DNA from: Escherichia coli
GTDB lineage: Bacteria > Pseudomonadota > Gammaproteobacteria > Enterobacterales > Enterobacteriaceae
DNA: 64,000 nt
Reading direction: 5' to 3' (one strand)
Assembly: GCF_011045215.1 (NCBI RefSeq)
Contig: NZ_CP049202.1
Shown here: positions 36,361-53,577 of the stretch, piece by piece
Position numbering within the stretch: position 1 is the first letter of the stretch
How the letters are laid out: each line of letters begins with the position of its first letter
Notes under the pieces: model-generated
What the model was told of the DNA's origin: nothing
What the model saw: the letters and a program-made list of their open reading frames with translations, nothing else
The model's database searches: none
Program-made: the position numbers and the translations under genes

Positions 36361-37008
36361 TTATCTTCCCAATATTTCTTTTACTTTAGCATATAAAGGA
36401 AGTATCTTTTCCGTTCTAATCATTTCATCCAACCAGAGATCTCTAGAACTAAATCCATATCGTTTAAATAATTTCATGGTTTTCTTCTTTGATTTAGACA
36501 CAGTGATGTTCATCTTTGCTGATGAATAATGATGGCTAAACCCTATCAGATATGGCTCAATGCCTACATATTCATCAGAGGGTACAATTAATTCATTGGA
36601 GTATTTAGACACAACAAACGATGACAGATTATCATTTGCTACCCAAATAAACCTCCAGATGAAGAAATAGCCGCATGGTGTTATAACACTTTCTATGATC
36701 ACACTCCATAACGTATTATTAAGTAATATGTCATTATTACAATTTACACCATAAATAGAAGAGCATGATTCAATCTCTGCTCTGGATAACTGTAATTTAC
36801 ATTCCAACGTTAAACTATCAAACCATTCATCACATGAATTAAAGGACGATCTGATAAGTTTTTCAAAGCAGTTATTTTCCTTAATAAAAGAACCATCCTC
36901 GAAGCGGATACATACAGGATATTTTAAAAACGAAATAGCCTCTCCAAGACTATGAGGGAAATGCAATTGACTGATGAGTGCTCTTTCTCTACGATCCATC
37001 GCACACAT
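36361..37008 (-). CDS. traJ: TraJ-type activator of the tra operon (about 215 aa from ATG with GGAGG RBS)
   Basis: AT-rich ORF between traM and traY; strong RBS at the chosen ATG; the upstream in-frame extension contains the FinP-target hairpin; identity by position, sequence is divergent. Confidence 0.6.
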
Positions 37009-37085
37009 AGGAACCTCCGTTAAGGATTCTATGGACAGTCGATGCAGGGAGTGGCTGCTCCCTGCATCGGCGATTTTCAGTTTCA
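37005..37085 (+). ncRNA. finP: FinP antisense RNA (approximate), complementary to the traJ leader
   Basis: Perfect 12-bp stem / 6-nt loop hairpin (~37040..37069) immediately upstream of the traJ RBS, where FinP is encoded in F-like plasmids. Confidence 0.4.
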
Positions 37086-37198
37086 ATTTTTAACGTGGCA
37101 TTAACCACGTAATCAATATACTAATTATTCTGATTATTGTCATCAGTTCGAACCATAAAAAACTCTGATATTTGAACAAAGTCAAAATTTATTTCCCT

Positions 37199-37900: not shown

Positions 37901-38000
37901 AACTTGTTTTTGCGTGGGGTGTGGTGCTTTTGGTGGTGAGAACCACCAACCTGTTGAGCCTTTTTGTGGAGTGGGTTAAATTATTTACGGATAAAGTCAC
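37900..38000 (+). other. oriT core; F-type nic site in GCGTGGGGTGT/GGTGCT (nick at about 37922/37923), plus-strand is the transferred strand
   Basis: Sequence TTTTTGCGTGGGGTGTGGTGCTTTTGGTGGTGAGAACCACCAACCTGTTGAGCC matches the F oriT nic region as remembered, including the GGTGGTGAGAACCACC inverted repeat. Confidence 0.8.
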
Positions 38001-40057: not shown

Positions 40058-40620
40058 TCTCTCTGGTTTTCAGCCCCCATCATCTTTTGAGTTTCGGGAG
40101 CCGCGGTTTTGACGTTTTGCGGGGACCTGCCTTTTGTTCCCTCCGGTATTCACCATCATCTTTTTGAGAACCTTCGCCGCAAGGGGCATCACTGCCACGG
40201 CCGGAAACGACTGTCCGGGGGCAGACCGCAAAAGTTTTTGCCTGCTTCTGGGCAAAAACTTTTGCGGGATGTGCATTTCACCCCTGGACTGGCGGAGACG
40301 GTTGTGGCTGTATCAGCCCCCGGCGACAGGGGATTAAACAGGTGAATGGCACCGGACAGAACAACGGGCAGGGACCCGCCGCAGCGACGTGAAGCGCGGT
40401 TTGCGAAACGGCGTTGCCCCTTACATCCCGGCGGCCTTTTGCCGGGATGCCGGGAGCGCAGGCCACGGCGCGACAGAGGCGGCGCGACCGGAACGGTCGC
40501 TGCAAGCCCGGGGTTTCGCGTCAGGGATGGAAGCCCGCCAGGGCGGAGACAGCTTCGCTGGCTCCGTTCACGACAGCCCGCCCCGCCAGGGGGACGCCCG
40601 GAAAAGGCATAAGCAGGAGA
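40058..40620. repeat. Frpo/ssi-like GC-rich structured element, copy 1 of a roughly 0.55-kb direct repeat
   Basis: Near-identical sequence recurs at ~45456..46000; contains internal inverted repeats (CCGCAAAAGTTTTTGCC...GGCAAAAACTTTTGCGG); lies upstream of a minus-strand leading gene. Confidence 0.55.
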
Positions 40621-40943
40621 ACAACAAAACAGACAATAATCAGGGCAGCAGTAATCAGAGTCAGAACAGGAGGAAAAAGAGAATAATCAAAGGGAAGGTG
40701 ATGTGATTTCTGACAGGTCATAAACAGAGAAGGCGGGGGAAAAGAACGGGCGCCGCAGGCGCACGTTCATCCCCGTTCCCGGAGGGAAACGGCCTTCCTG
40801 GCAGTCTGGTTGTTCATGCCCGTACAATGCCAGCAAGGAGAAAGGGGCCACCGGCGAACCAGCAGCCCCTTTATAAAGGCGCTTCAGTGCAGTCAGACCA
40901 GCATCAGCCCTGAAAAGGCGGGCCTGCGCCCGCCTCCAGGTTG

Positions 40944-41102
40944 CTACTTACCGGATTCGTAAGCCATGAAAGCCGCCACCTCCCTGTATCCGTCTCTGTA
41001 ACGAATCTCGCACAGCGATTTTCGTGTCAGATAAGTGAATATCAACAGTGTGAGACACACGATCAACACACACCAGACAAGAGAGCTGCGTGGTAGTTTC
41101 AT
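40944..41102 (-). CDS. hok: Hok-family membrane toxin (52 aa), flmA/hok type
   Basis: [52 protein letters not shown] is near-identical to Hok. Confidence 0.9.
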
Positions 41103-41160
41103 GGCCTTCTTCTCCTTGCGCAAAGCGCGGTAAGAGGCTATCCTGATGTTGTCTAAGCAT
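40948..41160 (-). CDS. mok: Mok-type overlapping reading frame (modulator of killing)
   Basis: 70-aa ORF overlapping hok in a different frame, as in hok/mok/sok loci. Confidence 0.5.
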
Positions 41161-41210
41161 GCAGGGGCCTCGTGGGTTAATGAAAAATTAACTACGGGGC
41201 TTTTGTCCTT
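41130..41210 (+). ncRNA. sok: Sok-type antisense RNA (approximate placement only)
   Basis: Inferred from the conserved hok/sok architecture; not resolved directly from sequence. Confidence 0.3.
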
Positions 41211-41376
41211 CTGCCACACAACACGGCAACAAACCACCTTCACGTCATGAGGCAGAAAGCCTCAAGCGCCGGGCACATCATAGCCCATATCCCTGCACGC
41301 TGACCACACTCACTTTTCCTGAAAATAATCCGCTCATTCAGGCTGTTTACGGGTAATCTGTGTGATTGTTGCCGCA

Positions 41377-42581: not shown

Positions 42582-44540
42582 TCAGGCGGCATCAGCCAGG
42601 TTATCGGTGCGTTCAGTGGCATCCGTCTGTGGGCGTGGTGCACACATCCAGCCAGGCACCCAGCGGTTGTCTTTCATGTGGAACTCTGCATGTTCAGCCG
42701 CATCGCCTTTCTTCATCTTCTCCGCGTCCCGTGCAGCACCGGACAGTCCTGCCTCATTCAGGGCTGCGATAATCTGCGGCTTTTTCAGGTGTCCGAAGAA
42801 GTTTGCTTTTGTCGGCTGCCACCAGTCGCGCATGTGAAAGCCGATGGCGCTTTCCAGCGAATCCAGCGGACTGCGTGACGTGTGACCATACTCACGGGTC
42901 TGAACACCGTGGATGCTGCACGCAGTGCAGAAACTGAGCAGGGACAACAGCACCTCCTGACTGAGTGACAGGAACGTCGCCATGTCCCGTGACCATCCCT
43001 CCGGTAACAGGGCCGCAAGACGGGCTTTTTCTGCCATCATCGCCATGAACGCGGCACCTTCCTTCCCTGACGGCGCATCGCTGGTCAGCGAATAATGTTT
43101 ACATTCCAGGCTGATTTGTGCTGGTTTACTGTACGCTCCGCTGCCAAACACATTCAGGCAGAGCGTCCATGCCAGCAGTGCCAGAGATTTGTCCGGTTGC
43201 TGCATGAGTGCTGTCTGGACTGCCAGCGTGCGTTCGGAAGACATTTTCGTCAGCAGTGGCAGACTGATTTCCTCCACTGATGCTTTCTCCTGCACCTGTT
43301 CCGTGCGGTCAGCGTCATCAGTCGCGTCATCTTCACTGCGCAACTGCACACCACGCTGGACACATACGTTTCCATAACGCCAGGACACCACCACGCCACT
43401 TCCGGCACGCATCTCCGGCGTCCACGCCCTGACCTTCGCCATGCAGTCAATCAGCTTCATTTCTGCTTCCAGCAGGTCGGATTCCTCACACTGATTTTCC
43501 AGCGCGTCGTAACGTGCCATCAGTTCGTTCAGGCGTTCTTCTTCCGCCTCCGTCAGCACAGCTTCCGGCTCCGGCAGACTGCGGTATGTTCCGGCATCCT
43601 CACGGCAGAAACCGACAGGCTCCATACGTCCAGCACACCATTCCCAGCCTTCGGCTTCCCGAAGGTGTTCAGCAACAGCCTGGAGTTTTTCCAGCAGGGC
43701 GGCATCGAGCGCCACGCAGTCCACATAGCCACCCTCGTTGTCGCTGAACAAATCGGTGCGCAGTTCATCTGGCGAGAAGGCATCAGCCCCCACGAAGCGG
43801 AATTTACTGTTCCCCGCCACCACCACTTCACTTTCGGTCACCAGACGACGAATGGTCTGTACTTCCGGTTTTCCGCCCCATCCCGACTGACAGGCAGCTT
43901 CAAACACCTGTACCTGACGTGCGGTGTCGTTCTCCAGCGCCAGCGCCTGACAGTGCTCTGTGGTGATGCGGTCTTCTGCCAGCGCATCGAGGATGACAGG
44001 CGCAAGGTCAGCCAGTTTCAGCATTCGCTGAACGTGGCGGGGTGAATAGCCCAGCAAATCACCGATTTGTGCAGGTGTTTTGCCTTCCTGCGCCATTGCG
44101 CGGAATCCGGCAATCTGTTCGGCAGGGTGCATATCCCGACGATGACCGTTTTCAGTCATTGATGCGGCAGTCGCCAGTTCCTGCGGAATGACCTTCACAC
44201 GGACAGGCCAGTCAGCCGGAATGATGCCACGCTCTGCCAGCATGTTGAGTGCTGCCAGTCGGCGACCACCTGCGGCGACACCGTGGCGGTCACCTGGCAG
44301 GGCATGAACAACCAGATTCTGTAACAGGCCGACACCTTTAATGGAGTCCGCCAGTTCGCTGACGGACTCCGCAGAATACGGCACCGTGCGCACATTCAGC
44401 GGTGACTTAATCAGTGAGGACAGCGGCACGCTCACTTCCTCCGTCTGCGCCAGCAGGGCAGACAGGGCAGTCTCCTGCTCTTTTGACGGTTTACGGCTGG
44501 ATTTACGCTCCGTTTTTGTCTTAGACTCTGTAACTGACAT
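42582..44540 (-). CDS. ParB/Srx-like nuclease-domain protein (652 aa), conserved leading-region protein
   Basis: N-terminal ParB-like motif region (LNVRTVPYSAESVSELADSIKGVGLLQNLVV...GGRRLAAL); large C-terminal domain. Confidence 0.8.
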   Translation of the reverse strand: MSVTESKTKTERKSSRKPSKEQETALSALLAQTEEVSVPLSSLIKSPLNVRTVPYSAESVSELADSIKGVGLLQNLVVHALPGDRHGVAAGGRRLAALNMLAERGIIPADWPVRVKVIPQELATAASMTENGHRRDMHPAEQIAGFRAMAQEGKTPAQIGDLLGYSPRHVQRMLKLADLAPVILDALAEDRITTEHCQALALENDTARQVQVFEAACQSGWGGKPEVQTIRRLVTESEVVVAGNSKFRFVGADAFSPDELRTDLFSDNEGGYVDCVALDAALLEKLQAVAEHLREAEGWEWCAGRMEPVGFCREDAGTYRSLPEPEAVLTEAEEERLNELMARYDALENQCEESDLLEAEMKLIDCMAKVRAWTPEMRAGSGVVVSWRYGNVCVQRGVQLRSEDDATDDADRTEQVQEKASVEEISLPLLTKMSSERTLAVQTALMQQPDKSLALLAWTLCLNVFGSGAYSKPAQISLECKHYSLTSDAPSGKEGAAFMAMMAEKARLAALLPEGWSRDMATFLSLSQEVLLSLLSFCTACSIHGVQTREYGHTSRSPLDSLESAIGFHMRDWWQPTKANFFGHLKKPQIIAALNEAGLSGAARDAEKMKKGDAAEHAEFHMKDNRWVPGWMCAPRPQTDATERTDNLADAA

Positions 44541-44603: not shown

Positions 44604-45439
<836 letters not shown>

Positions 45440-45455
45440 GATGTGTCTCCTTCTG

Positions 45456-46000
45456 TTGATGTTTTCAGCCCCCATCATCTTTTGAGTTTCAGGAGCCGCG
45501 GTTTGACGTTTTGCGGGGACCTGCCTTTTGTTCCCTCCGGTATTCACCATCACCTTTTTGAGAACCTTCGCCGCAAGGGGCATCACTGCCACGGCCGGAA
45601 ACGACTGTCCGGGGGCAGACCGCAAAAGTTTTTGCCTGCTTCTGGGCAAAAACTTTTGCGGGATGTGCATTTCACCCCTGGACTGGCGGAGACGGTTGTG
45701 GCTGTATCAGCCCCCGGCGACAGGGGATTAAACAGGTGAATGGCACCGGACAGAACAACGGGCAGGGCCCCGCCGCAACGACGGAGAGCGCGTGCGCGAA
45801 ACGGCGTTGCCCCTTACATCCCGGCGGCCTTTTGTCGGGATGCCGGGAGCGCAGGCCACGGCGCGACAGAGGCGGCGCGACCGGAACGGTCGCTGCAAGC
45901 CAGGGTTTCGCGTCAGGGATAGAAGCCCGCCAGGGCGGAGACAGCTCCGCTGGCTCCGTTCACGACAGCCCGCCCCGCCCCGCCAGGGGGACGCCCGGAA
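45456..46000. repeat. Frpo/ssi-like GC-rich structured element, copy 2 (direct repeat of ~40058..40620), immediately upstream of ssb
   Basis: Near-identical to copy 1 by eye with scattered substitutions and small indels. Confidence 0.55.
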
Positions 46001-46019
46001 AAGCCATAAACAGGAGAGG

Positions 46020-46075
46020 AACGGAAAGAAGAGGAAGAGGAAAAAGAAAAAGAAGAAGAAGAAGAAGAAGAAGAA
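46020..46075. repeat. Purine-rich microsatellite (GAA/AGA)n adjoining repeat copy 2
   Basis: GGAAGAGGAAAAAGAAAAAGAAGAAGAAGAAGAAGAAGAACAA read directly; absent from copy 1. Confidence 0.7.
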
Positions 46076-46252
46076 CAATAACAAGCACGGTAACCACAGA
46101 AAAATAACATCAGAAAAAAACATTCCGGACACATCACAAACAGGAAGGGTAACGGGCGACGCGTCAGCGTGGCCCGCTTCCCTTCCGGCAGGCGTCAGCC
46201 TGCCAGGGGTTTTCGCGCGGGCTGACAGGCGGCCTCCACCGCCTGCCCTGTA

Positions 46253-46444
46253 TCACCTGTTTCTGCTGCCCTGAAGGATGTACTGACCGCCGAGGAATAC
46301 AGCCTGCTGATTCGCCACAAAATCGCAGATTTCATCAACAATCTGCGCCGTGGTGAGCGGTTTCTGCCCCATTTCACGACGTCGTGCATTAATCACAGCT
46401 TTGTAATTACGCAGAATTTCGCGGGTTTCCGTGCTGATATTCAT
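46253..46444 (-). CDS. Hypothetical small leading-region protein (63 aa)
   Basis: ATG with GGGGAG RBS; start overlaps the stop of the upstream 139-aa ORF. Confidence 0.4.
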   Translation of the reverse strand: MNISTETREILRNYKAVINARRREMGQKPLTTAQIVDEICDFVANQQAVFLGGQYILQGSRNR

Positions 46445-46863
46445 TACCCGTTCTCCCCGTCCAGCGCCTGACGCATCACCCGCATAATCTCACGTTCTTC
46501 CCTGACAAATGCGTCACCGTCGCCCCCGTTCTCGCTCCCGACAGCATGGAGGCGATAAATTTCACTACCAGCCATCACCATCACTTTTTCCAGCAGCACC
46601 GCAGGGACTGTTACAAGACGGTTTACGCGCTTTTCCTCCATCAGTTCATTGACAATATCGGAAACAACTCTGTCACATGCGCCATATACAAAAGCATCGT
46701 CCAGCCGCTGCATGACGGTTTCCAGCTCATCGTCTGTCAGACTCCAGTCCTGGGCTATGTGACGCACATCCCCACGGGTCAGCACCACGGCAAAAACGCA
46801 TTCACTGTCCGGCACGTCTGTATCCAGTACATCGCGAATGATTTCTTTAACAGTACAGTACAT
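46444..46863 (-). CDS. Hypothetical leading-region protein (139 aa), apparent paralogue of the ORF at 48567..49034
   Basis: Acidic protein; shares a ...RxVTVPAxLLxxV... segment with the 155-aa ORF. Confidence 0.5.
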   Translation of the reverse strand: MYCTVKEIIRDVLDTDVPDSECVFAVVLTRGDVRHIAQDWSLTDDELETVMQRLDDAFVYGACDRVVSDIVNELMEEKRVNRLVTVPAVLLEKVMVMAGSEIYRLHAVGSENGGDGDAFVREEREIMRVMRQALDGENG

Positions 46864-46909
46864 GTTCTCGTCTCCTTTACAGGGGCGGCATTGCCGCCCC
46901 GTCCGTTAA

Positions 46910-47335
46910 TCAGTCCAGTGCCGCGTAAATCGCGTTGCATTCAGGGTGAAATTCGATGTGACGCCACAACTGCGCATCACGCATCCGGTAAAGCTGAGTC
47001 AGCCCCGCATCACCGCTGTCGTGGTACAGCCACAACTGACGGTTAATCACAAGGGAAGTCAGAATGACACCTGCGGCATCAGCACTCACAGTACGGTCAA
47101 ACCAGTTTGCACCGTTCACCATGTGGAAACGGTCGCCATCCGGCATCATGTAACCGCCACCGTCCGGCAGGCGGATGAAGTGCCAGAATCCGCCTTCATA
47201 TTCCGGCATCATTTTTTTCGCCAGCGCGTATACAGACGCTTCGGCATACAGAAAATCCTGGCCAAACAGGTAAGGCAGAAAAGACAGACGGTCGCACTCT
47301 TCAACGTTCAGAGTGACAGATTTCGCATATTGCAT
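46910..47335 (-). CDS. klcA: KlcA/ArdB-family antirestriction protein (141 aa)
   Basis: Size and conserved-looking segments ([13 protein letters not shown]...[20 protein letters not shown]...[15 protein letters not shown]) recalled from ArdB/KlcA-type proteins. Confidence 0.65.
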
Positions 47336-47751
47336 GATGTTTTCCTCCGTTGTTCACATATTCCGCGACACCGGGCGGTGCCGTGCCTCCATAAAAGCCG
47401 GGCGATAAGGCGGGGATGCAGGGGCGCAAGGGAAGCCGCAGCCTGACGCACACGGCTGACGGGAGTTGGAGGGTGAGACCGCGAAATCTGAGCGGGTGAA
47501 CGACCGGAAAATCACGGCAGACGGGAAGAAAGGACCGGGTGACCGCAGCGGCAAAGCGTACCCTTGCATCCCTGCCAGCCCGGCTAAGATGGAGGCACGG
47601 CACAGCCCGCACACGACGCTGAGGCCACATAACTGAAAAACCACAAGGCCATGCCCTGCATGGCCGGGTAAAGCGGAGCCGGCGGCGACTTCCTTTGTGC
47701 TCTGTCCGGGGACCGGCAGGAAAAAGGCGGGGATTTACCCCGCCAACGTCA

Positions 47752-48522
47752 TCATTTCCGGATTTTTGCCAGGGCATCCGCCATGCTGCGGATTTCGGCC
47801 CGGGCTTCCCGGACCACCTCCCGCAGAACACCACGGTCAAACCAGCGGCGGGGCGGTTCATCCGGTATACGCAGCACATCGCAGGCCAGCCCACTGGACA
47901 GGATATGCTCAATACAATCGCTGACCAGGTACATTTCCACCGACGAAAAACGTGCTCCCCGGTTCACGATGGCATCGAGCACCACGGGCAGGTTTTCGTC
48001 ATCTTCATCGAGCCAGCAGGGGTGATCGCTTTCCTTCACAACCAGACGAAAGCGGCGCGTCTGGCGGGTCAGCAACGTCTGACCGGTGGTGGTCAGCGCC
48101 GCCCGGATACGCCGCGCATCGTCTGCCACCTGGTAACAGATGCTTCGTATTGCATCGCGCACCGCCGCAAGTACAGCCCTGATTTCGTCTTCTGCCAGCC
48201 ACTCACCGGCATACGGGAAAGACACCTGCGTTCCGTCTGCCGGAAGTACCGGCAGCGACTGCCACTGACTGCCGGACAGAACAAGTTCCGCCCCGGTTCC
48301 GGTCAGTTTCTGAATGGCAGAGGCCAGGTGCGGCGGCAGTACGCCGCCGTGACGGTTGATAAGTAACGTCGCCAGCCGGGGCGTATCCAGCCGCACGTAA
48401 ATGCTGATCCAGCCCGGATGGTTCGGATTTCGCTGGTCAACATCCGTCTCTTCCGGCCAGCCCTGCGCCAGCAGCAGGTTACGGGCGTGGCGACAAATCA
48501 GTGCATTCAGCGTTTCGTTCAT
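47752..48522 (-). CDS. Hypothetical leading-region protein (256 aa)
   Basis: Long ORF with plausible coding character; no recognised motif. Confidence 0.5.
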
Positions 48523-48566
48523 GATTCATGGTCTCCCTGAATCGCCGCCCGCAGGCGGCGATAACA

Positions 48567-49034
48567 TCAGTCGTTTTCGCGTGTGTTGTTTTTCAGCAGG
48601 GCGCGGGCCTGATTAACCACCGCCAGTCGGCGGGTGACGCATTCCGGGACGACGAGGCCGTTATCACGGGCGGCCCACTCACGTTTCCACAGTGCCTGTT
48701 CAGCGGTCTGAATCAGGGACGCCAGCAGTTCAGCAGGGACGGTCACCTGGCGGTTTTCGCTCACGTTGCTGATAATCTCCATCACCGCGGCGGAAGAAAT
48801 ACCGGATTCAGTCCTCTGGTCTTCCGGGATGTCCTCCATGCGCGCCAGGACGGTCCTGATTTCATGATCGGTCAGAGAAATTTCCATACCGTCAGCCAGT
48901 GCCTGAATCTCTTCCGGAGACCAGATAACCAGCATCAGCGGCGTGTCTCCCGGATACTTTGCTGCCAGCTCCCGGCAGAGCGTTTCGCATGTTCCGTACA
49001 TTCTCGTCTCCTTCTCAATCTTTAAAGCACGCAT
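48567..49034 (-). CDS. Hypothetical leading-region protein (155 aa), paralogue-like to 46444..46863
   Basis: See the 139-aa ORF; acidic. Confidence 0.5.
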   Translation of the reverse strand: MRALKIEKETRMYGTCETLCRELAAKYPGDTPLMLVIWSPEEIQALADGMEISLTDHEIRTVLARMEDIPEDQRTESGISSAAVMEIISNVSENRQVTVPAELLASLIQTAEQALWKREWAARDNGLVVPECVTRRLAVVNQARALLKNNTREND

Positions 49035-49236
49035 CCAGTTCCAGAATTTCGGTATATGCCTCCATCAGGAGGCGGTTTGCGCGAAACAACGTCTGACGCA
49101 CCAGACGTTCCGGCAGGGTGTCAGCATTAAAGCTGTACCGCCGCTCCATCTCATTCATGGTTGTACGCAGGTCGCACATGGCATTGGCCACCTCCGCCAC
49201 TTCGGCGCGAAGTTTTTCGTGTCCGGCATAGTTCAT
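49015..49236 (-). CDS. Hypothetical small protein (73 aa)
   Basis: ORF directly downstream of the methyltransferase gene. Confidence 0.4.
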   Translation of the reverse strand: MNYAGHEKLRAEVAEVANAMCDLRTTMNEMERRYSFNADTLPERLVRQTLFRANRLLMEAYTEILELDACFKD

Positions 49237-49920
49237 TTACGCAGCCTCCGGCATAAACCAGTCATCATTCGCGGCCCCCTGCTGCATGGCCCGTTGCACG
49301 GCGGCAAGGCGTTGCTGCCCGGCACGGTGATACTGCTCAAGCAGCTCGATACCGATATACCGGCGTCCGGACTGGAGGGCGGCGACGCAGGTTGAGCCGC
49401 TGCCTGCAAACGGGTCCAGCACAATTGCGTTCGGGTGTGTGAAGCTCTCAATCAGCGGTTGCAGGCTGGTAACGGGCTTTTCCGTCGGGTGATGGCGATT
49501 GCCCGAATATTTCCAGCCCAGCACGTCCGGCGGCGGGTTTTGTGGCAGACGTGGACGGCCTTTTGCCAGGATGTAGGCGCATTCGTGGCGATAGCCCACA
49601 TATGCGGCCTTCGATGTGTAGTTTTTGGTGAAGACCAGGTGACCAACAACGCTGAATCCCGCATTTTTCCAGGCGGCAATAAAGCGATCGACGCGGTTCC
49701 AGCCATAGAAGCTCACCATTAACGCGTCTTTTTTCAGCACGCGGTACATCTCATTACAGGCCGGTTGCAGCCATTCATCGGTTTTATCTCCGGCGATGGT
49801 GCGCCCGGAACGGTCACGAAAACCGACGAGATATGGCGGGTCAGTTAATATGAAATCAATGGCGTTATCAGGGATACGCGTCATAACATCGATGCAGTTA
49901 CCAAGAACAAAACGGGACAT
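49237..49920 (-). CDS. Orphan N6-adenine (DPPY-motif) DNA methyltransferase (227 aa)
   Basis: DPPY motif (ILTDPPYLVGF), ParB-N/MTase-like layout; no adjacent restriction endonuclease gene recognised. Confidence 0.85.
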   Translation of the reverse strand: MSRFVLGNCIDVMTRIPDNAIDFILTDPPYLVGFRDRSGRTIAGDKTDEWLQPACNEMYRVLKKDALMVSFYGWNRVDRFIAAWKNAGFSVVGHLVFTKNYTSKAAYVGYRHECAYILAKGRPRLPQNPPPDVLGWKYSGNRHHPTEKPVTSLQPLIESFTHPNAIVLDPFAGSGSTCVAALQSGRRYIGIELLEQYHRAGQQRLAAVQRAMQQGAANDDWFMPEAA

Positions 49921-50267
49921 AATAACGCTCCTTCTCTTACAGAGGGCACCGGGAGGGCACCCCTGTGGTGCCCGTTCCCCGCTGCCTGTGGGCTGTTCAC
50001 CGCGTCCGGTAACGGGTCAGGCCGACCGTGGAATATCGCAGCCGTCGTCTTTTTGACGGCGAGAATATGCCGCGAAAGCGGCTTGAAGGGCGTTCATCAG
50101 AAAAGGGCGACAGGCTGGCGTACACTGTCACCGGTACCAGCCGGGAGCAGTAAAAGCGCCCGTCCCGTGCCCGCCGGACGCGGGACACTGACCACAGGCA
50201 GCGTTCCTGCCGCGCCGCGTCAGCCGGCGCAGTAAAAAGAGGAGCACGGCGACATCCTTTGTCGGAA

Positions 50268-50300
50268 AAGAAACGGGCGGTTGCCCGCCCGTCTCCGTCA
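50268..50300 (-). terminator. Rho-independent terminator-like hairpin after the 308-aa gene
   Basis: On the minus strand, GGGCGGGCAACCGCCCG stem-loop followed by a T-rich run. Confidence 0.5.
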
Positions 50301-50304
50301 TACT

Positions 50305-51231
50305 TCATCCGCCATAATGCGCCACATTGTCGACTATCCACGCAGGTCCGGTGACTTCCGGCAGCTCATCGTCATCTGTCGGGGAAGAGCATTCCAGTTC
50401 CCCCCACAGCACATCAACGAGCTCTCCGCGCTCATACAACTGCCAGCCACAGAAATTGCAGCCCTGTTCGGCGTACCAGTGCTCCAGCGTGCAGCCGAAA
50501 CGGCGGCTTAATTCTGCAACAACGTTGCTTTCCGGCTGACACCACGGCGTGTCGAAATCCACCTGAATGAAGTTGTCTCCCTGACGGCTGATATTCACCT
50601 CATACCTCACAGGCCACTTCACGCCATACTGTTCCGTATACCAGTGATACGCAGAAGGAACACCGTTCAGAACACCACCGTTAAAGCCATTCACTTCAAC
50701 ATCCAGGCGGGTGGGCAGAACCGTCAGCAGGTCAAACGGCATGGTTTTTTCCGGCAGTACATTGTCACACAGACGGTTCCACCACACCGATACATCCTCG
50801 TTACTCCAGAAGCCACACCAGTCACCTCTTTTGGCGGTGAAATGCACGGTGATGGTTTCTCTGACCTCATCCGGTAATCCTTCCCAGCGACGCTGGCCAG
50901 TACCACTCTGCAGCCAGAGTTCATGCAGCATCAGGCAGTTTTGCTCATCCAGCAGTACACCGTCCTGCAGGTATGTCAGCCAGCGGGTGAACGCGATATT
51001 CTCCGGCGATACAACACCACGTCCGGCAGCCGTCAGTCCGGGGCACGGTTCAAACTGCACATCTTCAGTGGTCTGCAGAAGTCCGGCACTTCCGGCCAGA
51101 AATAGCTGAATACCTTCATTTGTGGCGCGGCGATAAAGCGGTATGACTGCACCGCTGGCCAGTCGTTTAATCTCAGCGATCTGTGCCGGTTCACCAGAAA
51201 AATACATACGATTCGAGCACCAGTTTAGCAT
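50305..51231 (-). CDS. Hypothetical conserved leading-region protein (308 aa from ATG with AGGAG RBS)
   Basis: Long ORF; the track start is GTG but the internal ATG at 51231 has a strong RBS. Confidence 0.55.
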   Translation of the reverse strand: MLNWCSNRMYFSGEPAQIAEIKRLASGAVIPLYRRATNEGIQLFLAGSAGLLQTTEDVQFEPCPGLTAAGRGVVSPENIAFTRWLTYLQDGVLLDEQNCLMLHELWLQSGTGQRRWEGLPDEVRETITVHFTAKRGDWCGFWSNEDVSVWWNRLCDNVLPEKTMPFDLLTVLPTRLDVEVNGFNGGVLNGVPSAYHWYTEQYGVKWPVRYEVNISRQGDNFIQVDFDTPWCQPESNVVAELSRRFGCTLEHWYAEQGCNFCGWQLYERGELVDVLWGELECSSPTDDDELPEVTGPAWIVDNVAHYGG

Positions 51232-51583
51232 GGGAATTCTCCTCTCACATGCGGCCTCCATCAGGCCGTGCCGCACCTGTAACCGGGCGACCGCATACGA
51301 ATGCAGGTGCGGCCCCGAAGCCGCAGCGCGTGGAGGAGGAACGACGAAACGTGACCGGGTGAGGAGGCCTGCGACAGCGACACACTTGCATCGGATGCAG
51401 CCCGGTTAACGTGCCGGCACGGCCTGGGTAACCAGGTATTTTGTCCACAGAACCGTGCACAAAATGCTGTGGATAAGCTGGACACAACAGTCCACAGCAG
51501 GCATACAGCCACACTCTCAGAGAATTGAGCGTTTTTTAGTCACAATAATGACATTTGACTGTGTGTGGATTCAGTTATTAGAA

Positions 51584-51603
51584 TACTGTATATACATACA
51601 GCA
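51584..51603. promoter_or_regulatory. LexA (SOS) box upstream of impC
   Basis: TACTGTATATACATACAGCA fits the CTGT-N8-ACAG LexA consensus; about 20 nt upstream of the impC start. Confidence 0.65.
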
Positions 51604-51873: not shown

Positions 51874-52307
51874 GTACCGTTTATCACCGTCCGGCTGACC
51901 CTTCAGGCGATGACAGTTACGTGCGACCGTTGTTTGCCGATCGTTGCCAGGCCGGTTTTCCTTCGCCTGCCACTGATTATGCTGAGCAGGAACTGGATCT
52001 GAACAGCTATTGCATCAGCAGACCTGCAGCCACCTTCTTTCTGCGCGCCAGCGGTGAATCGATGAACCAGTCTGGCGTGCAGAATGGTGATCTGCTGGTA
52101 GTGGACAGGGCCGAAAAACCACAACACGGGGACATCGTTATCGCTGAGATCGACGGTGAGTTCACCGTCAAACGACTGCTGTTGCGCCCACGCCCGGCAC
52201 TGGAGCCGGTTTCAGACAGCCCGGAGTTCCGCACACTGTATCCGGAAAACATCTGTATTTTTGGTATTGTCACTCACGTGATACACAGGACGCGGGAGTT
52301 ACGCTGA
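51870..52307 (+). CDS. impA: ImpA/UmuD/MucA-like LexA-type S24 peptidase (145 aa)
   Basis: Ser/Lys dyad context (SGESM...KRLLL), 145 aa; start overlaps the impC stop. Confidence 0.85.
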   Translation: MSTVYHRPADPSGDDSYVRPLFADRCQAGFPSPATDYAEQELDLNSYCISRPAATFFLRASGESMNQSGVQNGDLLVVDRAEKPQHGDIVIAEIDGEFTVKRLLLRPRPALEPVSDSPEFRTLYPENICIFGIVTHVIHRTRELR

Positions 52308-53577
52308 TGTTTGCACTGGCTGATATCAACAGTTTCTACGCCTCATGTGAAAAAGTTTTCCGCCCGAACCTTCGCAACGAACCGGTCATCGTACTCAGCA
52401 ATAACGATGGCTGTGTGATCGCGCGCAGCCCGGAGGCAAAAGCCCTTGGCATCAGAATGGGGCAGCTCTGGTTTCAGGTGAGACAAATGCGCCTGGAGAA
52501 GAAAATACATGTATTTTCCAGCAATTATGCGCTGTACCACAGCATGAGCCAACGGGTTATGGCTGTTCTGGAGTCGCTTTCTCCCGCAGTTGAGCCCTAC
52601 TCAATTGATGAAATGTTCATTGATTTGCGGGGGATAAATCATTGCATCTCTCCGGAGGTTTTTGGTCATCAGCTCAGGGAACAGGTAAAGAGCTGGACAG
52701 GACTCACCATGGGGGTGGGCATTGCGCCTACAAAAACGCTGGCTAAAAGTGCACAGTGGGCAACAAAGCAATGGCCACAGTTTTCCGGTGTGGTCGCGCT
52801 GACGGCAGAAAACCGTAATCGGAGCTTGAAGCTACTGGGGCTGCAGCCAGTTGGTGAGGTCTGGGGAGTAGGACGCAAACTGACGGAAAAGCTGAATGCG
52901 CTGGGTATTAACACAGCACTGCAACTGGCGCAGGCTAACACGGCATTCATCCGGAAAAACTTCAGCGTCATTCTTGAGCGTACGGTACGCGAACTCAACG
53001 GCGAGTCCAGCATATCCCTGGAAGAAGCACCACCGGCAAAACAGCAGATTGTCTGTAGTCGCAGTTTTGGTGAACGAATCACAGACAAAGATGCCATGCA
53101 CCAGGCTGTTGTTCAGTATGCAGAGCGGGCCGCAGAGAAACTACGTGGGGAGCGTCAGTATTGTCGGCAGGTGACGACATTTGTACGGACATCCCCCTTT
53201 GCAGTAAAAGAACCCTGTTACAGCAATGCCGCTGTGGAAAAGCTTTCATTGCCACACAGGACAGCCGGGACATTATTGCCGCCGCATGCAGAGCCTTAAA
53301 CCATGTCTGGCGTGAAGGGTACCGCTATATGAAGGCAGGAGTCATGCTGGCTGATTTCACACCATCGGGTATAGCGCAGCCGGGATTATTTGATGAAATC
53401 CAGCCCCGTAAAAACAGTGAAAAGTTAATGAAAACACTCGATGAACTGAACCAGTCGGGAAAAGGGAAAGTGTGGTTTGCGGGGCGAGGAACCGCCCCTG
53501 AATGGCAAATGAAACGGGAAATGCTATCGCCTTCGTATACAACACAATGGACTGAGATCCCCATTGCTTCATTCTGA
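52307..53577 (+). pseudogene. impB: ImpB/UmuC/MucB-like Y-family polymerase, disrupted by an apparent 1-nt frameshift near 53253..53257
   Basis: N-terminal part (MFALADINSFYASCEKVFRP...) is in one frame to 53299; the conserved C-terminal part (...TQDSRDIIAAA...YTTQWTEIP) is in another frame to 53577; together about 423 codons. Confidence 0.8.

What the first reader, a model, noticed from the sequence alone, without database searches (positions are those of the whole stretch)
46253..51231. Block of uncharacterised leading-region ORFs flanked by known anti-defence genes
Between ssb and the imp operon lie a KlcA/ArdB-like antirestriction gene, an orphan DPPY adenine methyltransferase, and at least six ORFs of unknown function (63, 139, 256, 155, 73 and 308 aa), all transcribed toward oriT from the strand that enters the recipient first. 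Early-entry leading-region genes are known to be enriched for anti-restriction, anti-SOS and other anti-defence functions, so these unknowns are candidate anti-defence factors. The 139-aa and 155-aa proteins look like diverged paralogues.
Basis: partly seen in the sequence, partly recalled or inferred. Interest (0 to 1): 0.5.

Follow-up and report, generated by a model that had tools for sequence, protein, structure and literature searches.

The report
Known F-plasmid early-entry anti-restriction gene block
This is the well-known, highly conserved stretch of F- and I-type conjugative plasmids that enters a new cell early and is switched on from single-stranded DNA; it holds two proven anti-restriction genes and six small genes that are real but still have no known function.

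Summary
Window 46253-51231 is the oriT-distal part of an F-type leading region. It is 99.9% identical to other E. coli plasmids, and at least 5000 plasmid records carry it at 90% identity or more, including F, pESBL and pMS7163B.

All eight genes lie on the - strand, so the transferred (+) strand is their template. All are under purifying selection (omega 0.03-0.46).

Anatomy:
- A class-3 single-stranded-DNA promoter hairpin (ssp3, 49980-50203) precedes the M.EcoGIX orthologue (94% identical), YubE (73 aa), DUF1380 (more likely 144 aa than 155) and the 256-aa YchA/YfdA protein, followed by a terminator.
- The class-2 hairpin (ssp2, 47372-47609) precedes ArdB/KlcA, DUF1380 (139 aa) and the 63-aa gene.
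- The DUF1281 gene is a separate unit behind a further ssp2-like hairpin.

The 139-aa and 155-aa proteins are true paralogues.

The anti-defence idea is already published (Samuel 2024), as are the early induction of these operons (Wen 2025) and the role of ssp2 (Fraikin 2026). Only the post-ArdB DUF1380 has indirect experimental support, from pMS7163B gene 910. The 256-aa protein gives a confident model with no known fold relative, and its relatives almost always lie just upstream of ArdB or ArdA.

Verdict: already known and moderately interesting. The individual functions remain open.

The parts
37914..37930 (+). oriT nic-site sequence (context). It defines the + strand as the transferred strand.
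   Evidence: Exact match to the F nic sequence GTGGGGTGTGGTGCTTT, recalled from memory. FinP/traJ 5'UTR at 37002-37110.
45461..46022 (+). Class-1 single-stranded-DNA promoter region (Frpo2/ssp1b-like) upstream of ssb. It is the second copy of a 560-nt direct repeat whose first copy is at 40066-40625.
   Evidence: Direct repeat, 96-98% identical. Strong ssDNA fold, z -7.9. Its position upstream of ssb matches Frpo2 in F (PMC12672017).
46253..46444 (-). 63-aa basic protein (YffA/AreA family), last gene of the ArdB operon.
   Evidence: omega 0.03-0.07. No Pfam, PDB or PHROG match. A 60%-identical homologue directly follows ArdB in L016.
46444..46863 (-). DUF1380 paralogue a (139 aa; yfeC/YubJ/YcjA). 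Orthologue of pMS7163B_00910.
   Evidence: BLASTP to the paralogue, E 1e-9. RefSeq annotation 'DUF1380 family protein'. 82% identical to gene 910, which shows an ardB-like donor-specific conjugation defect.
46910..47335 (-). ArdB/KlcA antirestriction protein (141 aa).
   Evidence: phrog_10132 'anti-restriction protein', E 4e-19. 94% identical to F YfgB.
47372..47609 (+). ssp2, the class-2 ssDNA promoter hairpin on the T strand. It carries TTGCAT (47564-47569), a 15-nt spacer and TAAGAT (47585-47590) on the distal arm, with TAAGAT opposite a mismatch.
   Evidence: Inverted repeat I1. ssDNA fold -105.8 kcal/mol, z -4.9. 94% column identity across six plasmids. A variant with both arms changed still folds, z -5.7. 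Aligns to the pESBL klcA upstream region, where a TSS was mapped. Reported as a replication roadblock in F.
47726..47744 (-). Intrinsic-terminator-like stem-loop ending the methyltransferase operon.
   Evidence: GGCGGGGTAAATCCCCGCC followed by TTTTTCC, directly after the 256-aa stop codon.
47752..48522 (-). 256-aa protein (YchA/YubG/NgrC; 'yfdA' in I-type plasmids, 'yffB' in F).
48567..49001 (-). DUF1380 paralogue b (yfcB/YubF/YcgB), probably 144 aa. The maximal ORF extends to 49034 (155 aa).
   Evidence: PF07128, E 9e-55, residues 12-147. AAGGAG Shine-Dalgarno sequence before ATG 49001. 93% identical to pMS7163B_00940.
49015..49236 (-). 73-aa YubE-family protein (yfcA).
   Evidence: phrog_4830. 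PF27407 YubE is recorded on homologues. omega 0.09-0.17. Its start codon abuts the methyltransferase stop codon.
49237..49920 (-). Orphan DPPY N6-adenine methyltransferase, orthologue of the single-strand-specific M.EcoGIX.
   Evidence: NF010253, 495 bits. 94% identical to the pESBL-EA11 methylase. No endonuclease gene adjacent.
49980..50203 (+). ssp3, the class-3 ssDNA promoter hairpin on the T strand.
   Evidence: Inverted repeat I2. Fold -110.4 kcal/mol, z -7.9. 97% column identity. Aligns to the pESBL M.EcoGIX upstream region (TSS reported in PMC12672017).
50264..50290 (-). Terminator-like stem-loop after the DUF1281 gene.
   Evidence: GGGCGG-GCAA-CCGCCC followed by GTTTCTTTTCC, read directly from the sequence. 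The scan did not list it.
50305..51231 (-). DUF1281/Api92-like protein (308 aa; yfaB/YubB/YccB).
   Evidence: PF06924 and PF18406. PDB 2IJR 'hypothetical protein api92', E 1e-50. omega 0.26-0.46.
51262..51425 (+). Candidate additional class-2-like ssDNA promoter hairpin upstream of the DUF1281 gene. It carries TTGCAT (51386-51391), a 15-nt spacer and TAACGT (51407-51412).
   Evidence: ssDNA fold z -3.6. Local similarity to the ssp2 distal arm. Almost invariant over about 300 nt in six plasmids. Not named in the text of the papers read.

Best explanation
The region is the oriT-distal half of the F/I-type plasmid leading region. It is an early-entry establishment module made of transcription units that are silent as duplex DNA and fire only while the incoming T strand (+ strand here) is single-stranded.

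Each unit is headed by a long hairpin on the T strand that rebuilds a promoter:
- Unit 1: ssp3, then the M.EcoGIX-type single-strand-specific adenine methyltransferase, YubE (73 aa), DUF1380b (144 aa) and YchA/YfdA (256 aa), followed by a terminator.
- Unit 2: ssp2, then ArdB/KlcA, DUF1380a (139 aa) and YffA (63 aa).
- Unit 3 (inferred): an ssp2-like hairpin, then DUF1281 (308 aa) and a terminator.

Shown elsewhere for near-identical orthologues:
- The two operons are induced in transconjugants within minutes.
- The methyltransferase protects against type II restriction.
- ArdB protects against type I restriction.
- ssp2 also stalls complementary-strand synthesis until UvrD resolves it, which prolongs expression.

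Inferred here: the six unknown proteins are co-expressed accessory factors of this anti-restriction and establishment programme.
- DUF1380a most likely contributes to evasion of type I (EcoKI) restriction together with ArdB.
- The conserved, tightly spaced (abutting or 13 nt apart) methyltransferase-YubE-DUF1380b trio suggests that YubE and DUF1380b act with or modulate the methyltransferase.
- YchA/YfdA has a well-predicted fold with no known relative and a fixed position just upstream of ArdB or ArdA. It is the best candidate for a new anti-restriction or establishment factor.
For: Identity and spread:
- 99.9% identical to other plasmids, and at least 5000 plasmid records at 90% identity or more.
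- The same block occurs in F, pESBL-EA11 and pMS7163B.

Orientation:
- The nic sequence is on the + strand, and all genes are on the - strand.

Hairpins:
- Inverted repeats and strong ssDNA folds.
- The intergenic DNA is more conserved than synonymous sites in the flanking genes.
- A variant ssp2 with both arms changed keeps the hairpin.
- The hairpins align to the pESBL elements, whose TSSs were mapped by 5' RACE, and the operons are reported as zygotically induced in pESBL and F (PMC12672017).
- No sigma-70-type duplex promoter was found on the - strand in 45400-51600, and there is a terminator after the 256-aa gene.

Function of the known parts:
- M.EcoGIX (PMC7736820).
- Deleting ssp2 lowers F transfer 21-fold to undetectable levels into non-isogenic E. 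coli, 36-fold against EcoGIII and 5-fold against EcoKI (bioRxiv 10.64898/2026.01.09.698686).

Unknown ORFs:
- All are under purifying selection.
- pMS7163B_00910, a DUF1380a orthologue at 82% identity, has TraDIS log2FC -2.35. A defined mutant is defective only from an hsdRMS-null donor, like ardB.
- ArdB followed by DUF1380 is conserved in diverged plasmids L009 and L015.
- Methyltransferase-YubE-DUF1380 is conserved in L015, L016 and L017.
- The YfdA family sits just upstream of ArdB or ArdA at 23-43% identity wherever the downstream genes are visible; L015 has one 111-aa ORF between.
Against: - In pMS7163B, the 63-aa gene (log2FC +0.50), DUF1281 (+0.27) and M.EcoGIX (+0.64) had no conjugation phenotype in a TOP10 to J53 cross. 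An unmarked deletion of the YubE gene transferred like wild type.
- The 910::Cm phenotype was not complemented. It could reflect effects of the cassette on ardB mRNA or on the downstream 63-aa gene.
- ArdB works without DUF1380. Cloned R64 ArdB is active, and purified ArdB inhibits BlihIA in vitro (PMC12429846). ArdB is not followed by DUF1380 in L013 or L016.
- M.EcoGIX expressed alone methylates in vivo (PMC7736820).
- A neighbouring leading-region protein, the ParB-like YfjB/HerB, acts on host transcription rather than on defence (PMC13370423). This shows that leading-region genes are not all anti-defence.
Confidence: 0.7

Rival explanations
1. The unknown ORFs are early establishment factors that do not target defence systems. 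They might modulate host physiology, SOS, replication or strand conversion, or plasmid copy-up, as the neighbouring ParB-like HerB, PsiB and SSB do.
For: - HerB (YfjB), a conserved leading-region protein 2 kb away (42582-44540), reprograms host transcription and lowers acquisition cost (PMC13370423).
- cis-overexpression of 930/940 (940 is DUF1380b) makes pMS7163B carriers lose competitions and blocks conjugation. This indicates an activity that affects host or plasmid physiology.
- No conjugation phenotype for the 63-aa and DUF1281 genes in an EcoKI+ recipient.
- No similarity to known anti-defence proteins.
Against: - These genes are tightly and repeatedly linked to methyltransferase, ArdB and ArdA genes across diverged plasmids.
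- Gene 910 shows a donor-specific defect that parallels ardB.
Confidence: 0.25
2. The DUF1380 paralogues, and perhaps YubE, have no target of their own. They are dedicated partners, chaperones or regulators of the adjacent effector: DUF1380a for ArdB, and YubE with DUF1380b for the single-strand methyltransferase.
For: - There is one paralogue in each effector operon, with near-identical ribosome-binding regions.
- The methyltransferase stop codon abuts the YubE start codon, and the YubE stop lies 13 nt before the DUF1380b start.
- The trio and the ArdB-DUF1380 pair are conserved in diverged plasmids.
- Gene 910 has the same phenotype as ardB.
- KlcA/ArdB acted against EcoKI in vivo but not in vitro (PMC2836571, title).
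- M.EcoGIX activity was lost on purification (PMC7736820, section heading).
Against: - ArdB alone is active when cloned, and inhibits BlihIA in vitro.
- M.EcoGIX alone methylates in vivo.
- ArdB occurs without DUF1380 in L013 and L016, and in other plasmid groups.
- No interaction data exist.
Confidence: 0.2
3. The small ORFs are non-functional passengers or mis-called ORFs in a region that is conserved for its DNA structures.
For: One annotated ORF here (49997-50308) does look spurious, with omega about 1 on top of the ssp3 hairpin. Several of the other ORFs have no lab phenotype.
Against: - All eight genes have omega 0.03-0.46, with dS up to 0.9 and no disruptions in five diverged plasmids.
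- Homologues at 23-60% identity keep their length and synteny.
- The genes have Shine-Dalgarno sequences.
Confidence: 0.03

Closest known systems
F plasmid leading region, ssp3 and ssp2 operons (yffB, yfgB etc.; NC_002483 53.8-57.8 kb)
   Same: Same genes in the same order and orientation. Gene identities are 80-97% at the nucleotide level, ArdB is 94% identical, and the ssp2 and ssp3 hairpins are conserved.
   Different: In the table used here, F has no annotated DUF1281 gene and no imp operon next to the block. This plasmid does. These are allelic differences only.
pESBL-EA11 (IncI1) M.EcoGIX and klcA operons with class 3 and class 2 ssDNA promoters (Wen et al. 2025; Fomenkov et al. 2020)
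   Same: Identical architecture: DUF1281, methylase, 73 aa, DUF1380, about 258 aa, ArdB, DUF1380, 63 aa, ssb. The methyltransferase is 94% identical and the promoter regions align closely.
   Different: The conjugation backbone differs (MOBP/MPF_I versus MOBF/MPF_F here). pESBL has an extra ORF between the 63-aa gene and ssb.
pMS7163B (IncB/O/K/Z) genes 900-960 (Phan-type TraDIS study, PMC10286972)
   Same: Orthologous block. Gene 910 is DUF1380a (82% identical), 940 is DUF1380b (93%), 950 is YubE, 900 is the 63-aa gene, 010 is DUF1281 and 920 is ardB.
   Different: In pMS7163B the 256-aa gene is truncated to a remnant. Here it is intact.
Classical anti-restriction proteins (ArdA, Ocr, ArdB/KlcA) and anti-CRISPRs
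   Same: Same genomic niche and expression logic. Several of the unknowns are small and acidic: pI 4.4-5.1 for both DUF1380 proteins, DUF1281 and YubE.

Membership tests
Conjugative-plasmid leading region (F-type) | Lies directly 3' of nic on the transferred strand, so it is the first DNA to enter the recipient | tested here: met
   The F nic sequence matches exactly at 37914-37930 on the + strand. The block lies 8.3-13.3 kb downstream on that strand. traM, FinP and traJ lie on the other side. The nic sequence itself was recalled from memory.
Conjugative-plasmid leading region (F-type) | Hallmark genes ssb, psiB, hok/sok and a ParB-like gene, all with the T strand as template | tested here: met
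   ssb, DUF905, the ParB-like gene, psiB, hok and DUF932 are all on the - strand. sok RNA at 41100-41271.
Class 2 / class 3 single-stranded-DNA promoters (Wen et al. 2025) | Long stem-loop on the T strand upstream of the operon, homologous to the pESBL/F elements | tested here: met
   Fold z-scores -4.9 and -7.9. Close alignment to the pESBL upstream regions and to F.
Class 2 / class 3 single-stranded-DNA promoters (Wen et al. 2025) | Transcription starts from the hairpin only in single-stranded form, in transconjugants | not testable with these tools
   Reported for the pESBL and F orthologues by RNA-seq and 5' RACE. Not measured for this plasmid.
M.EcoGIX-type single-strand-specific orphan methyltransferase | Beta-class N6-adenine methyltransferase with a DPPY motif, close orthology to M.EcoGIX, and no partner endonuclease | tested here: met
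   DPPY at residues 27-30. NF010253, 495 bits. 94% identical to the pESBL-EA11 methylase. No nuclease ORF adjacent.
M.EcoGIX-type single-strand-specific orphan methyltransferase | m6A at SAY on single strands only | not testable with these tools
   Known for M.EcoGIX (PMC7736820).
ArdB/KlcA antirestriction family (PF03230) | Sequence membership | tested here: met
   phrog_10132 'anti-restriction protein', E 4e-19. 94% identical to F YfgB, which is reported as 93% identical to R64 ArdB.
DUF1380 (PF07128) | Profile match for both paralogues | tested here: met
   Paralogue b: PF07128, E 9e-55. Paralogue a: phrog_9024, E 5.6e-4, BLASTP to b E 1e-9, and RefSeq annotation 'DUF1380 family protein'. 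Pfam was not run directly on paralogue a.
DUF1281 / Api92-like | PF06924 plus the PF18406 ferredoxin-like C-terminal domain | tested here: met
   E 5e-49 and 1e-14. PDB 2IJR, E 1e-50. Function unknown.
YubE (PF27407) | Profile match of the 73-aa protein | tested here: inconclusive
   The local Pfam library gave no match. PF27407 is recorded on fused or orthologous 73-aa proteins in the same position. phrog_4830, E 3e-34.
Known anti-defence protein families (ArdA, Ocr, Acr, DarA etc.) for the six unknown ORFs | Detectable sequence or fold similarity to a characterised inhibitor | tested here: not met
Known anti-defence protein families for the six unknown ORFs | Rescue of transfer or plaquing against a defined defence system | not testable with these tools
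   The only indirect published data are for the DUF1380a orthologue.

The most novel reading that the evidence does not exclude
The block encodes uncharacterised anti-restriction components.
- DUF1380a may be a functional partner of ArdB that is needed at native expression levels to defeat EcoKI-type enzymes.
- YubE and DUF1380b may tune or target the single-strand methyltransferase.
- YchA/YfdA, whose fold has no known relative and which sits upstream of ArdB or ArdA across Enterobacterales plasmids, may be a new inhibitor of a restriction-like defence.
- A third ssp2-like hairpin at 51262-51425, not named in the papers read, may make the DUF1281 gene a further zygotically induced unit.
Probability: 0.2. 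Interest if true: 0.6.

Novelty: already known. Interest (0 to 1): 0.3.

Why it matters
These genes sit on thousands of F- and I-type resistance and virulence plasmids, and they are among the first genes expressed when such a plasmid enters a new cell. Two members of the block already explain how the plasmids escape type I and type II restriction. What the six conserved unknowns do is an open question that recent papers state explicitly. Answering it could reveal new inhibitors of bacterial immunity and new targets for blocking plasmid spread. This window adds no new element to that picture. The analysis does narrow the question to specific, testable pairs: ArdB with DUF1380a, the methyltransferase with YubE and DUF1380b, and YchA/YfdA next to ArdA or ArdB.

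Tried and rejected
Searches that gave nothing informative:
- NCBIfam, PHROGs, Pfam, PADLOC and PDB sequence searches of the unknown ORFs gave only 'unknown function' families or nothing.
- A deep search of the 256-aa protein against 1.84 billion representatives found only 178 relatives, all of the same family.

Ideas considered and rejected:
- Fusion proteins such as 256 aa with DUF1380, YubE with DUF1380, or 256 aa with SSB appear in the protein database. I treated them as read-through or mis-called neighbours rather than Rosetta-stone evidence, because they are rare singletons joining adjacent genes.
- Covariation counting on the hairpins gave few compensatory pairs, because the sequences are nearly identical and the variable ssp2 segment is misaligned by indels. 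Folding the variant separately was more informative.
- I rejected the 49997-50308 ORF as a gene.

Literature:
- Searches by gene names (yub*, yf**) and for DUF1380 found no functional study.
- The supplements of Wen et al. are not held, so I could not compare the exact TSS positions.

Full report
**What is there**

Window 46253-51231 carries eight - strand genes:
- a 63-aa gene (46253-46444)
- a 139-aa gene (46444-46863)
- KlcA/ArdB, 141 aa (46910-47335)
- a 256-aa gene (47752-48522)
- a 155-aa maximal ORF (48567-49034)
- a 73-aa gene (49015-49236)
- a 227-aa DPPY methyltransferase (49237-49920)
- a 308-aa gene (50305-51231)

ssb lies just below the block and the imp operon just above it. The stretch is 99.9% identical to other E. 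coli plasmids. At least 5000 records in the plasmid collection hold it at 90% identity or more, in Escherichia, Klebsiella, Salmonella and Shigella. The same block is present in F itself, in the IncI1 plasmid pESBL-EA11, in the IncB/O/K/Z plasmid pMS7163B, and in IncI-gamma/K, IncI1/B/O and IncFII plasmids.

**Orientation**

The F nic-site sequence (recalled from memory) matches exactly at 37914-37930 on the + strand. Rfam places FinP and the traJ 5' UTR at 37002-37110 and sok at 41100-41271. The best-matching plasmid is MOBF/MPF_F. The + strand is therefore the transferred strand and enters 5' first from nic toward higher coordinates. The block lies 8-13 kb from nic, and the - strand genes use the incoming strand as template.

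**Are the ORFs genes?**

I computed Nei-Gojobori dN/dS against five diverged copies: F, pS83-1, a second IncF plasmid, a Shigella IncI1/B/O plasmid and a Klebsiella IncFII plasmid. All eight genes give omega 0.03-0.46, with dS up to about 0.9 and no stop codon or frameshift. The 63-aa gene is the most constrained (omega 0.03-0.07).

A ninth ORF that RefSeq annotates as 'hypothetical protein' (49997-50308) has omega 0.65-1.8 and dS of only 0.02-0.04. It is conserved as DNA rather than as protein, and it lies on a hairpin described below.

The '155-aa' protein probably starts at ATG 49001, giving 144 aa:
- An AAGGAG sits 7 nt upstream.
- The Pfam and PHROG matches begin at residue 12.
- Most database homologues are 144 aa.
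- The 139-aa paralogue has almost the same ribosome-binding region, AAGGAGACGAGAA(C)ATG.

**Paralogy**

The 139-aa and 155/144-aa proteins align at 28% identity over 120 residues, E 1e-9. The longer one is PF07128 DUF1380, E 9e-55. Both hit phrog_9024, and both are annotated DUF1380 in RefSeq.

**The known parts**

The methyltransferase matches NF010253. It is 94% identical to the pESBL-EA11 methylase, which is M.EcoGIX. M.EcoGIX is a single-strand-specific m6A enzyme (motif SAY) that protects the entering plasmid from type II restriction in an orientation-dependent way (PMC7736820).

The 141-aa protein is ArdB/KlcA (phrog_10132, E 4e-19). It is 94% identical to F YfgB, which is reported as 93% identical to R64 ArdB.

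The 308-aa protein is DUF1281 plus DUF1281_C. It has a solved structural-genomics relative of unknown function, 2IJR Api92, E 1e-50.

The 73-aa protein belongs to the family that a newer Pfam release calls YubE (PF27407), according to the precomputed domains on homologues. The local Pfam library has no match for it.

**Non-coding anatomy**

The intergenic DNA carries long inverted repeats at 47372-47609 and 49980-50203. Taken as single-stranded + strand DNA, these regions fold far better than shuffled controls: -105.8 kcal/mol with z -4.9, and -110.4 kcal/mol with z -7.9. They are 94% and 97% conserved across six plasmids, which is more than the synonymous sites of the flanking genes. They also align closely to the regions upstream of klcA and M.EcoGIX in pESBL.

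Wen et al. 2025 (PMC12672017) mapped transcription starts in those pESBL regions by 5' RACE. They classed the two elements as class 2 and class 3 single-stranded-DNA promoters, and showed that the two operons are induced early in transconjugants of both pESBL and F.

In ssp2, the distal arm carries TTGCAT (47564-47569), a 15-nt spacer and TAAGAT (47585-47590), with TAAGAT facing a three-base mismatch. A natural variant in which both arms are replaced still forms the equivalent hairpin (z -5.7).

Other non-coding features:
- A 560-nt direct repeat (40066-40625 and 45461-46022, 96-98% identical) sits where Frpo1 and Frpo2 (ssp1a and ssp1b) lie in F.
- A terminator-like stem-loop follows the 256-aa gene (47726-47744).
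- Another follows the DUF1281 gene (about 50264-50290, read).
- The duplex promoter scan found no sigma-70-type promoter on the - strand anywhere in 45400-51600.

The block is therefore two operons plus one single-gene unit, as set out in the parts list.

**A possible extra promoter**

The 164-nt hairpin at 51262-51425, just upstream of the DUF1281 gene, folds well (z -3.6) and is almost invariant over about 300 nt in six plasmids. It shares with the ssp2 distal arm the string CTTGCATC...CAGCCCGG(C/T)TAA..GGCACGGC, with the same 15-nt spacing between TTGCAT and a TAnnnT hexamer. The text of the two ssDNA-promoter papers I read names only ssp1a, ssp1b, ssp2 and ssp3. This is a candidate only, not a demonstrated promoter.

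**What is known about the region's function**

- Samuel et al. 2024 (PMC11541004) list these families among the largest leading-region-enriched families. They are family 6 (AreA/YffA), 7 (DUF1380, YcgB/YubF), 8 (methyltransferase), 9 (KlcA), 10 (YchA/YubG), 11 (YfcA), 14 (YcgC/YcjA/YubJ) and 27 (DUF1281). The authors call the unannotated ones probable anti-defence genes.
- Fraikin et al. 2026 show that F ssp2 is also a roadblock to complementary-strand synthesis that UvrD resolves. Deleting it cuts transfer 21-fold to undetectable levels into non-isogenic E. coli, 36-fold against EcoGIII and 5-fold against EcoKI. They state that the roles of individual leading genes remain to be defined.

**Evidence on the unknown ORFs**

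Sequence and structure searches were uninformative:
- NCBIfam, PHROGs, Pfam, PADLOC and PDB sequence searches give no functional match.
- The 256-aa protein has only 178 relatives among 1.84 billion representative proteins.
- With a 17-sequence alignment reaching down to 24% identity, AlphaFold2 gives a confident alpha/beta model of the 256-aa protein (pLDDT 90.7, pTM 0.83).

Gene neighbourhoods of diverged homologues of the 256-aa protein (23-43% identity) are informative:

| Locus | Gene order |
|---|---|
| L009/L010 | DUF1281, 156 aa, homologue, ArdB, DUF1380 (hhalign probability 98.4%) |
| L011 | 156 aa, homologue, ArdA |
| L013 | UmuDC, DUF1281, homologue, ArdB, ArdA |
| L015 | methyltransferase, YubE, DUF1380, two tandem homologues, 111 aa, ArdB, DUF1380 |
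| L016 | methyltransferase, YubE, DUF1380, homologue, ArdB, 63-aa homologue (60% identical) |
| L017 | methyltransferase, YubE, DUF1380, homologue |

Three associations are conserved well beyond the near-identical F/I block. The methyltransferase-YubE-DUF1380 trio recurs. ArdB is often followed by DUF1380 and/or the 63-aa gene. The 256-aa family sits just upstream of an antirestriction gene wherever the downstream genes are visible, with one 111-aa ORF between in L015.

The strongest functional lead comes from the TraDIS study of pMS7163B (PMC10286972). Its supplementary table gives coordinates that I mapped onto the RefSeq record:

| pMS7163B gene | Equivalent here | log2FC | Note |
|---|---|---|---|
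| 910 | DUF1380 after ardB (82% identical to the 139-aa protein) | -2.35 (FDR 2e-99) | TOP10 (hsdRMS-null) donor to J53 (EcoKI+) recipient |
| 950 | YubE | -4.24 | traced by the authors to the cassette promoter over-expressing 930/940; the unmarked deletion was wild type |
| 940 | DUF1380b (93% identical) | -1.67 | cis-overexpression of 930/940 made carriers lose competitions |
| 900 | 63-aa gene | +0.50 | no phenotype |
| 010 | DUF1281 | +0.27 | no phenotype |

A defined 910::Cm mutant, like ardB::Cm, lowered conjugation only from the TOP10 donor and not from MG1655. The authors explain this pattern for ardB as EcoKI restriction of unmodified DNA, and they leave gene 910 unexplained.

**Interpretation**

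The anatomy and regulation are well supported, by orthology to experimentally studied plasmids. For the unknown ORFs, the best-supported reading is that they are co-expressed accessory factors of an early anti-restriction and establishment programme. DUF1380a probably contributes to type I evasion.

Caveats:
- The 910 phenotype was not complemented and could be a cassette effect.
- ArdB works without DUF1380. Purified R64 ArdB inhibits BlihIA (PMC12429846), and ArdB lacks a DUF1380 neighbour in L013 and L016.
- Earlier work found KlcA/ArdB active against EcoKI in vivo but not in vitro (PMC2836571), which leaves room for a helper.
- Leading-region proteins need not be anti-defence. The adjacent ParB-like YfjB/HerB reprograms host transcription (PMC13370423).

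**Verdict**

The element itself is already known and ubiquitous. Its remaining interest lies in the unsolved functions of six conserved early-entry proteins, for which this analysis offers specific tests.

Noticed in passing
window 51262-51425: A hairpin upstream of the DUF1281 gene resembles the ssp2 class-2 single-strand promoter: TTGCAT, a 15-nt spacer and TAACGT, with a shared CAGCCCGG..GGCACGGC arm. It is almost invariant in six plasmids. The ssDNA-promoter papers I read do not name it.
   Followed up: partly
window 49997-50308: RefSeq annotates a 103-aa 'hypothetical protein' here. It overlies the ssp3 hairpin and has omega about 1 with very low dS, so it is probably not a gene.
   Followed up: yes
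window 48567-49034: The DUF1380b gene is annotated with different starts in different records (144, 155, 172 or 184 aa). The ATG at 49001 with an AAGGAG Shine-Dalgarno sequence (144 aa) fits best.
   Followed up: yes
window 52307-53577: The impB/umuC homologue appears split into a 330-aa ORF (52307-53299) and an overlapping 138-aa ORF (53161-53577) that holds the C-terminal part. This suggests a frameshifted pseudogene. The plasmid tables for the closest relatives list umuD but no umuC.
   Followed up: partly
window 46026-46075: An (AAG)n microsatellite of about 16.7 copies lies between the Frpo2-like repeat and the 63-aa gene, on the T strand.
   Followed up: no
window 40066-40625 and 45461-46022: A 560-nt direct repeat, 96-98% identical, sits at the positions of Frpo1/ssp1a (upstream of the DUF932 gene) and Frpo2/ssp1b (upstream of ssb).
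   Followed up: partly
window 42582-44540: The 652-aa ParB-like gene next to psiB is the YfjB family, recently renamed HerB and reported as a host-transcription reprogrammer (PMC13370423).
   Followed up: partly
L009 6443-6913; L011 3608-4078: In diverged plasmids, a conserved 156-aa protein (49% identical between the two loci) precedes the homologue of the 256-aa protein. Its C-terminal half weakly resembles the N-terminal 55 residues of DUF1380 (hhalign E 2e-4, probability 46%).
   Followed up: partly
L015 6799-8789: One diverged 116-kb contig carries two tandem copies of the 256-aa family (267 and 262 aa) between the methyltransferase-YubE-DUF1380 trio and ArdB.
   Followed up: no
L008 27665-27808 (pMS7163B): The 256-aa gene is reduced to a remnant in pMS7163B, so it is dispensable for that plasmid's transfer in the laboratory.
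   Followed up: no
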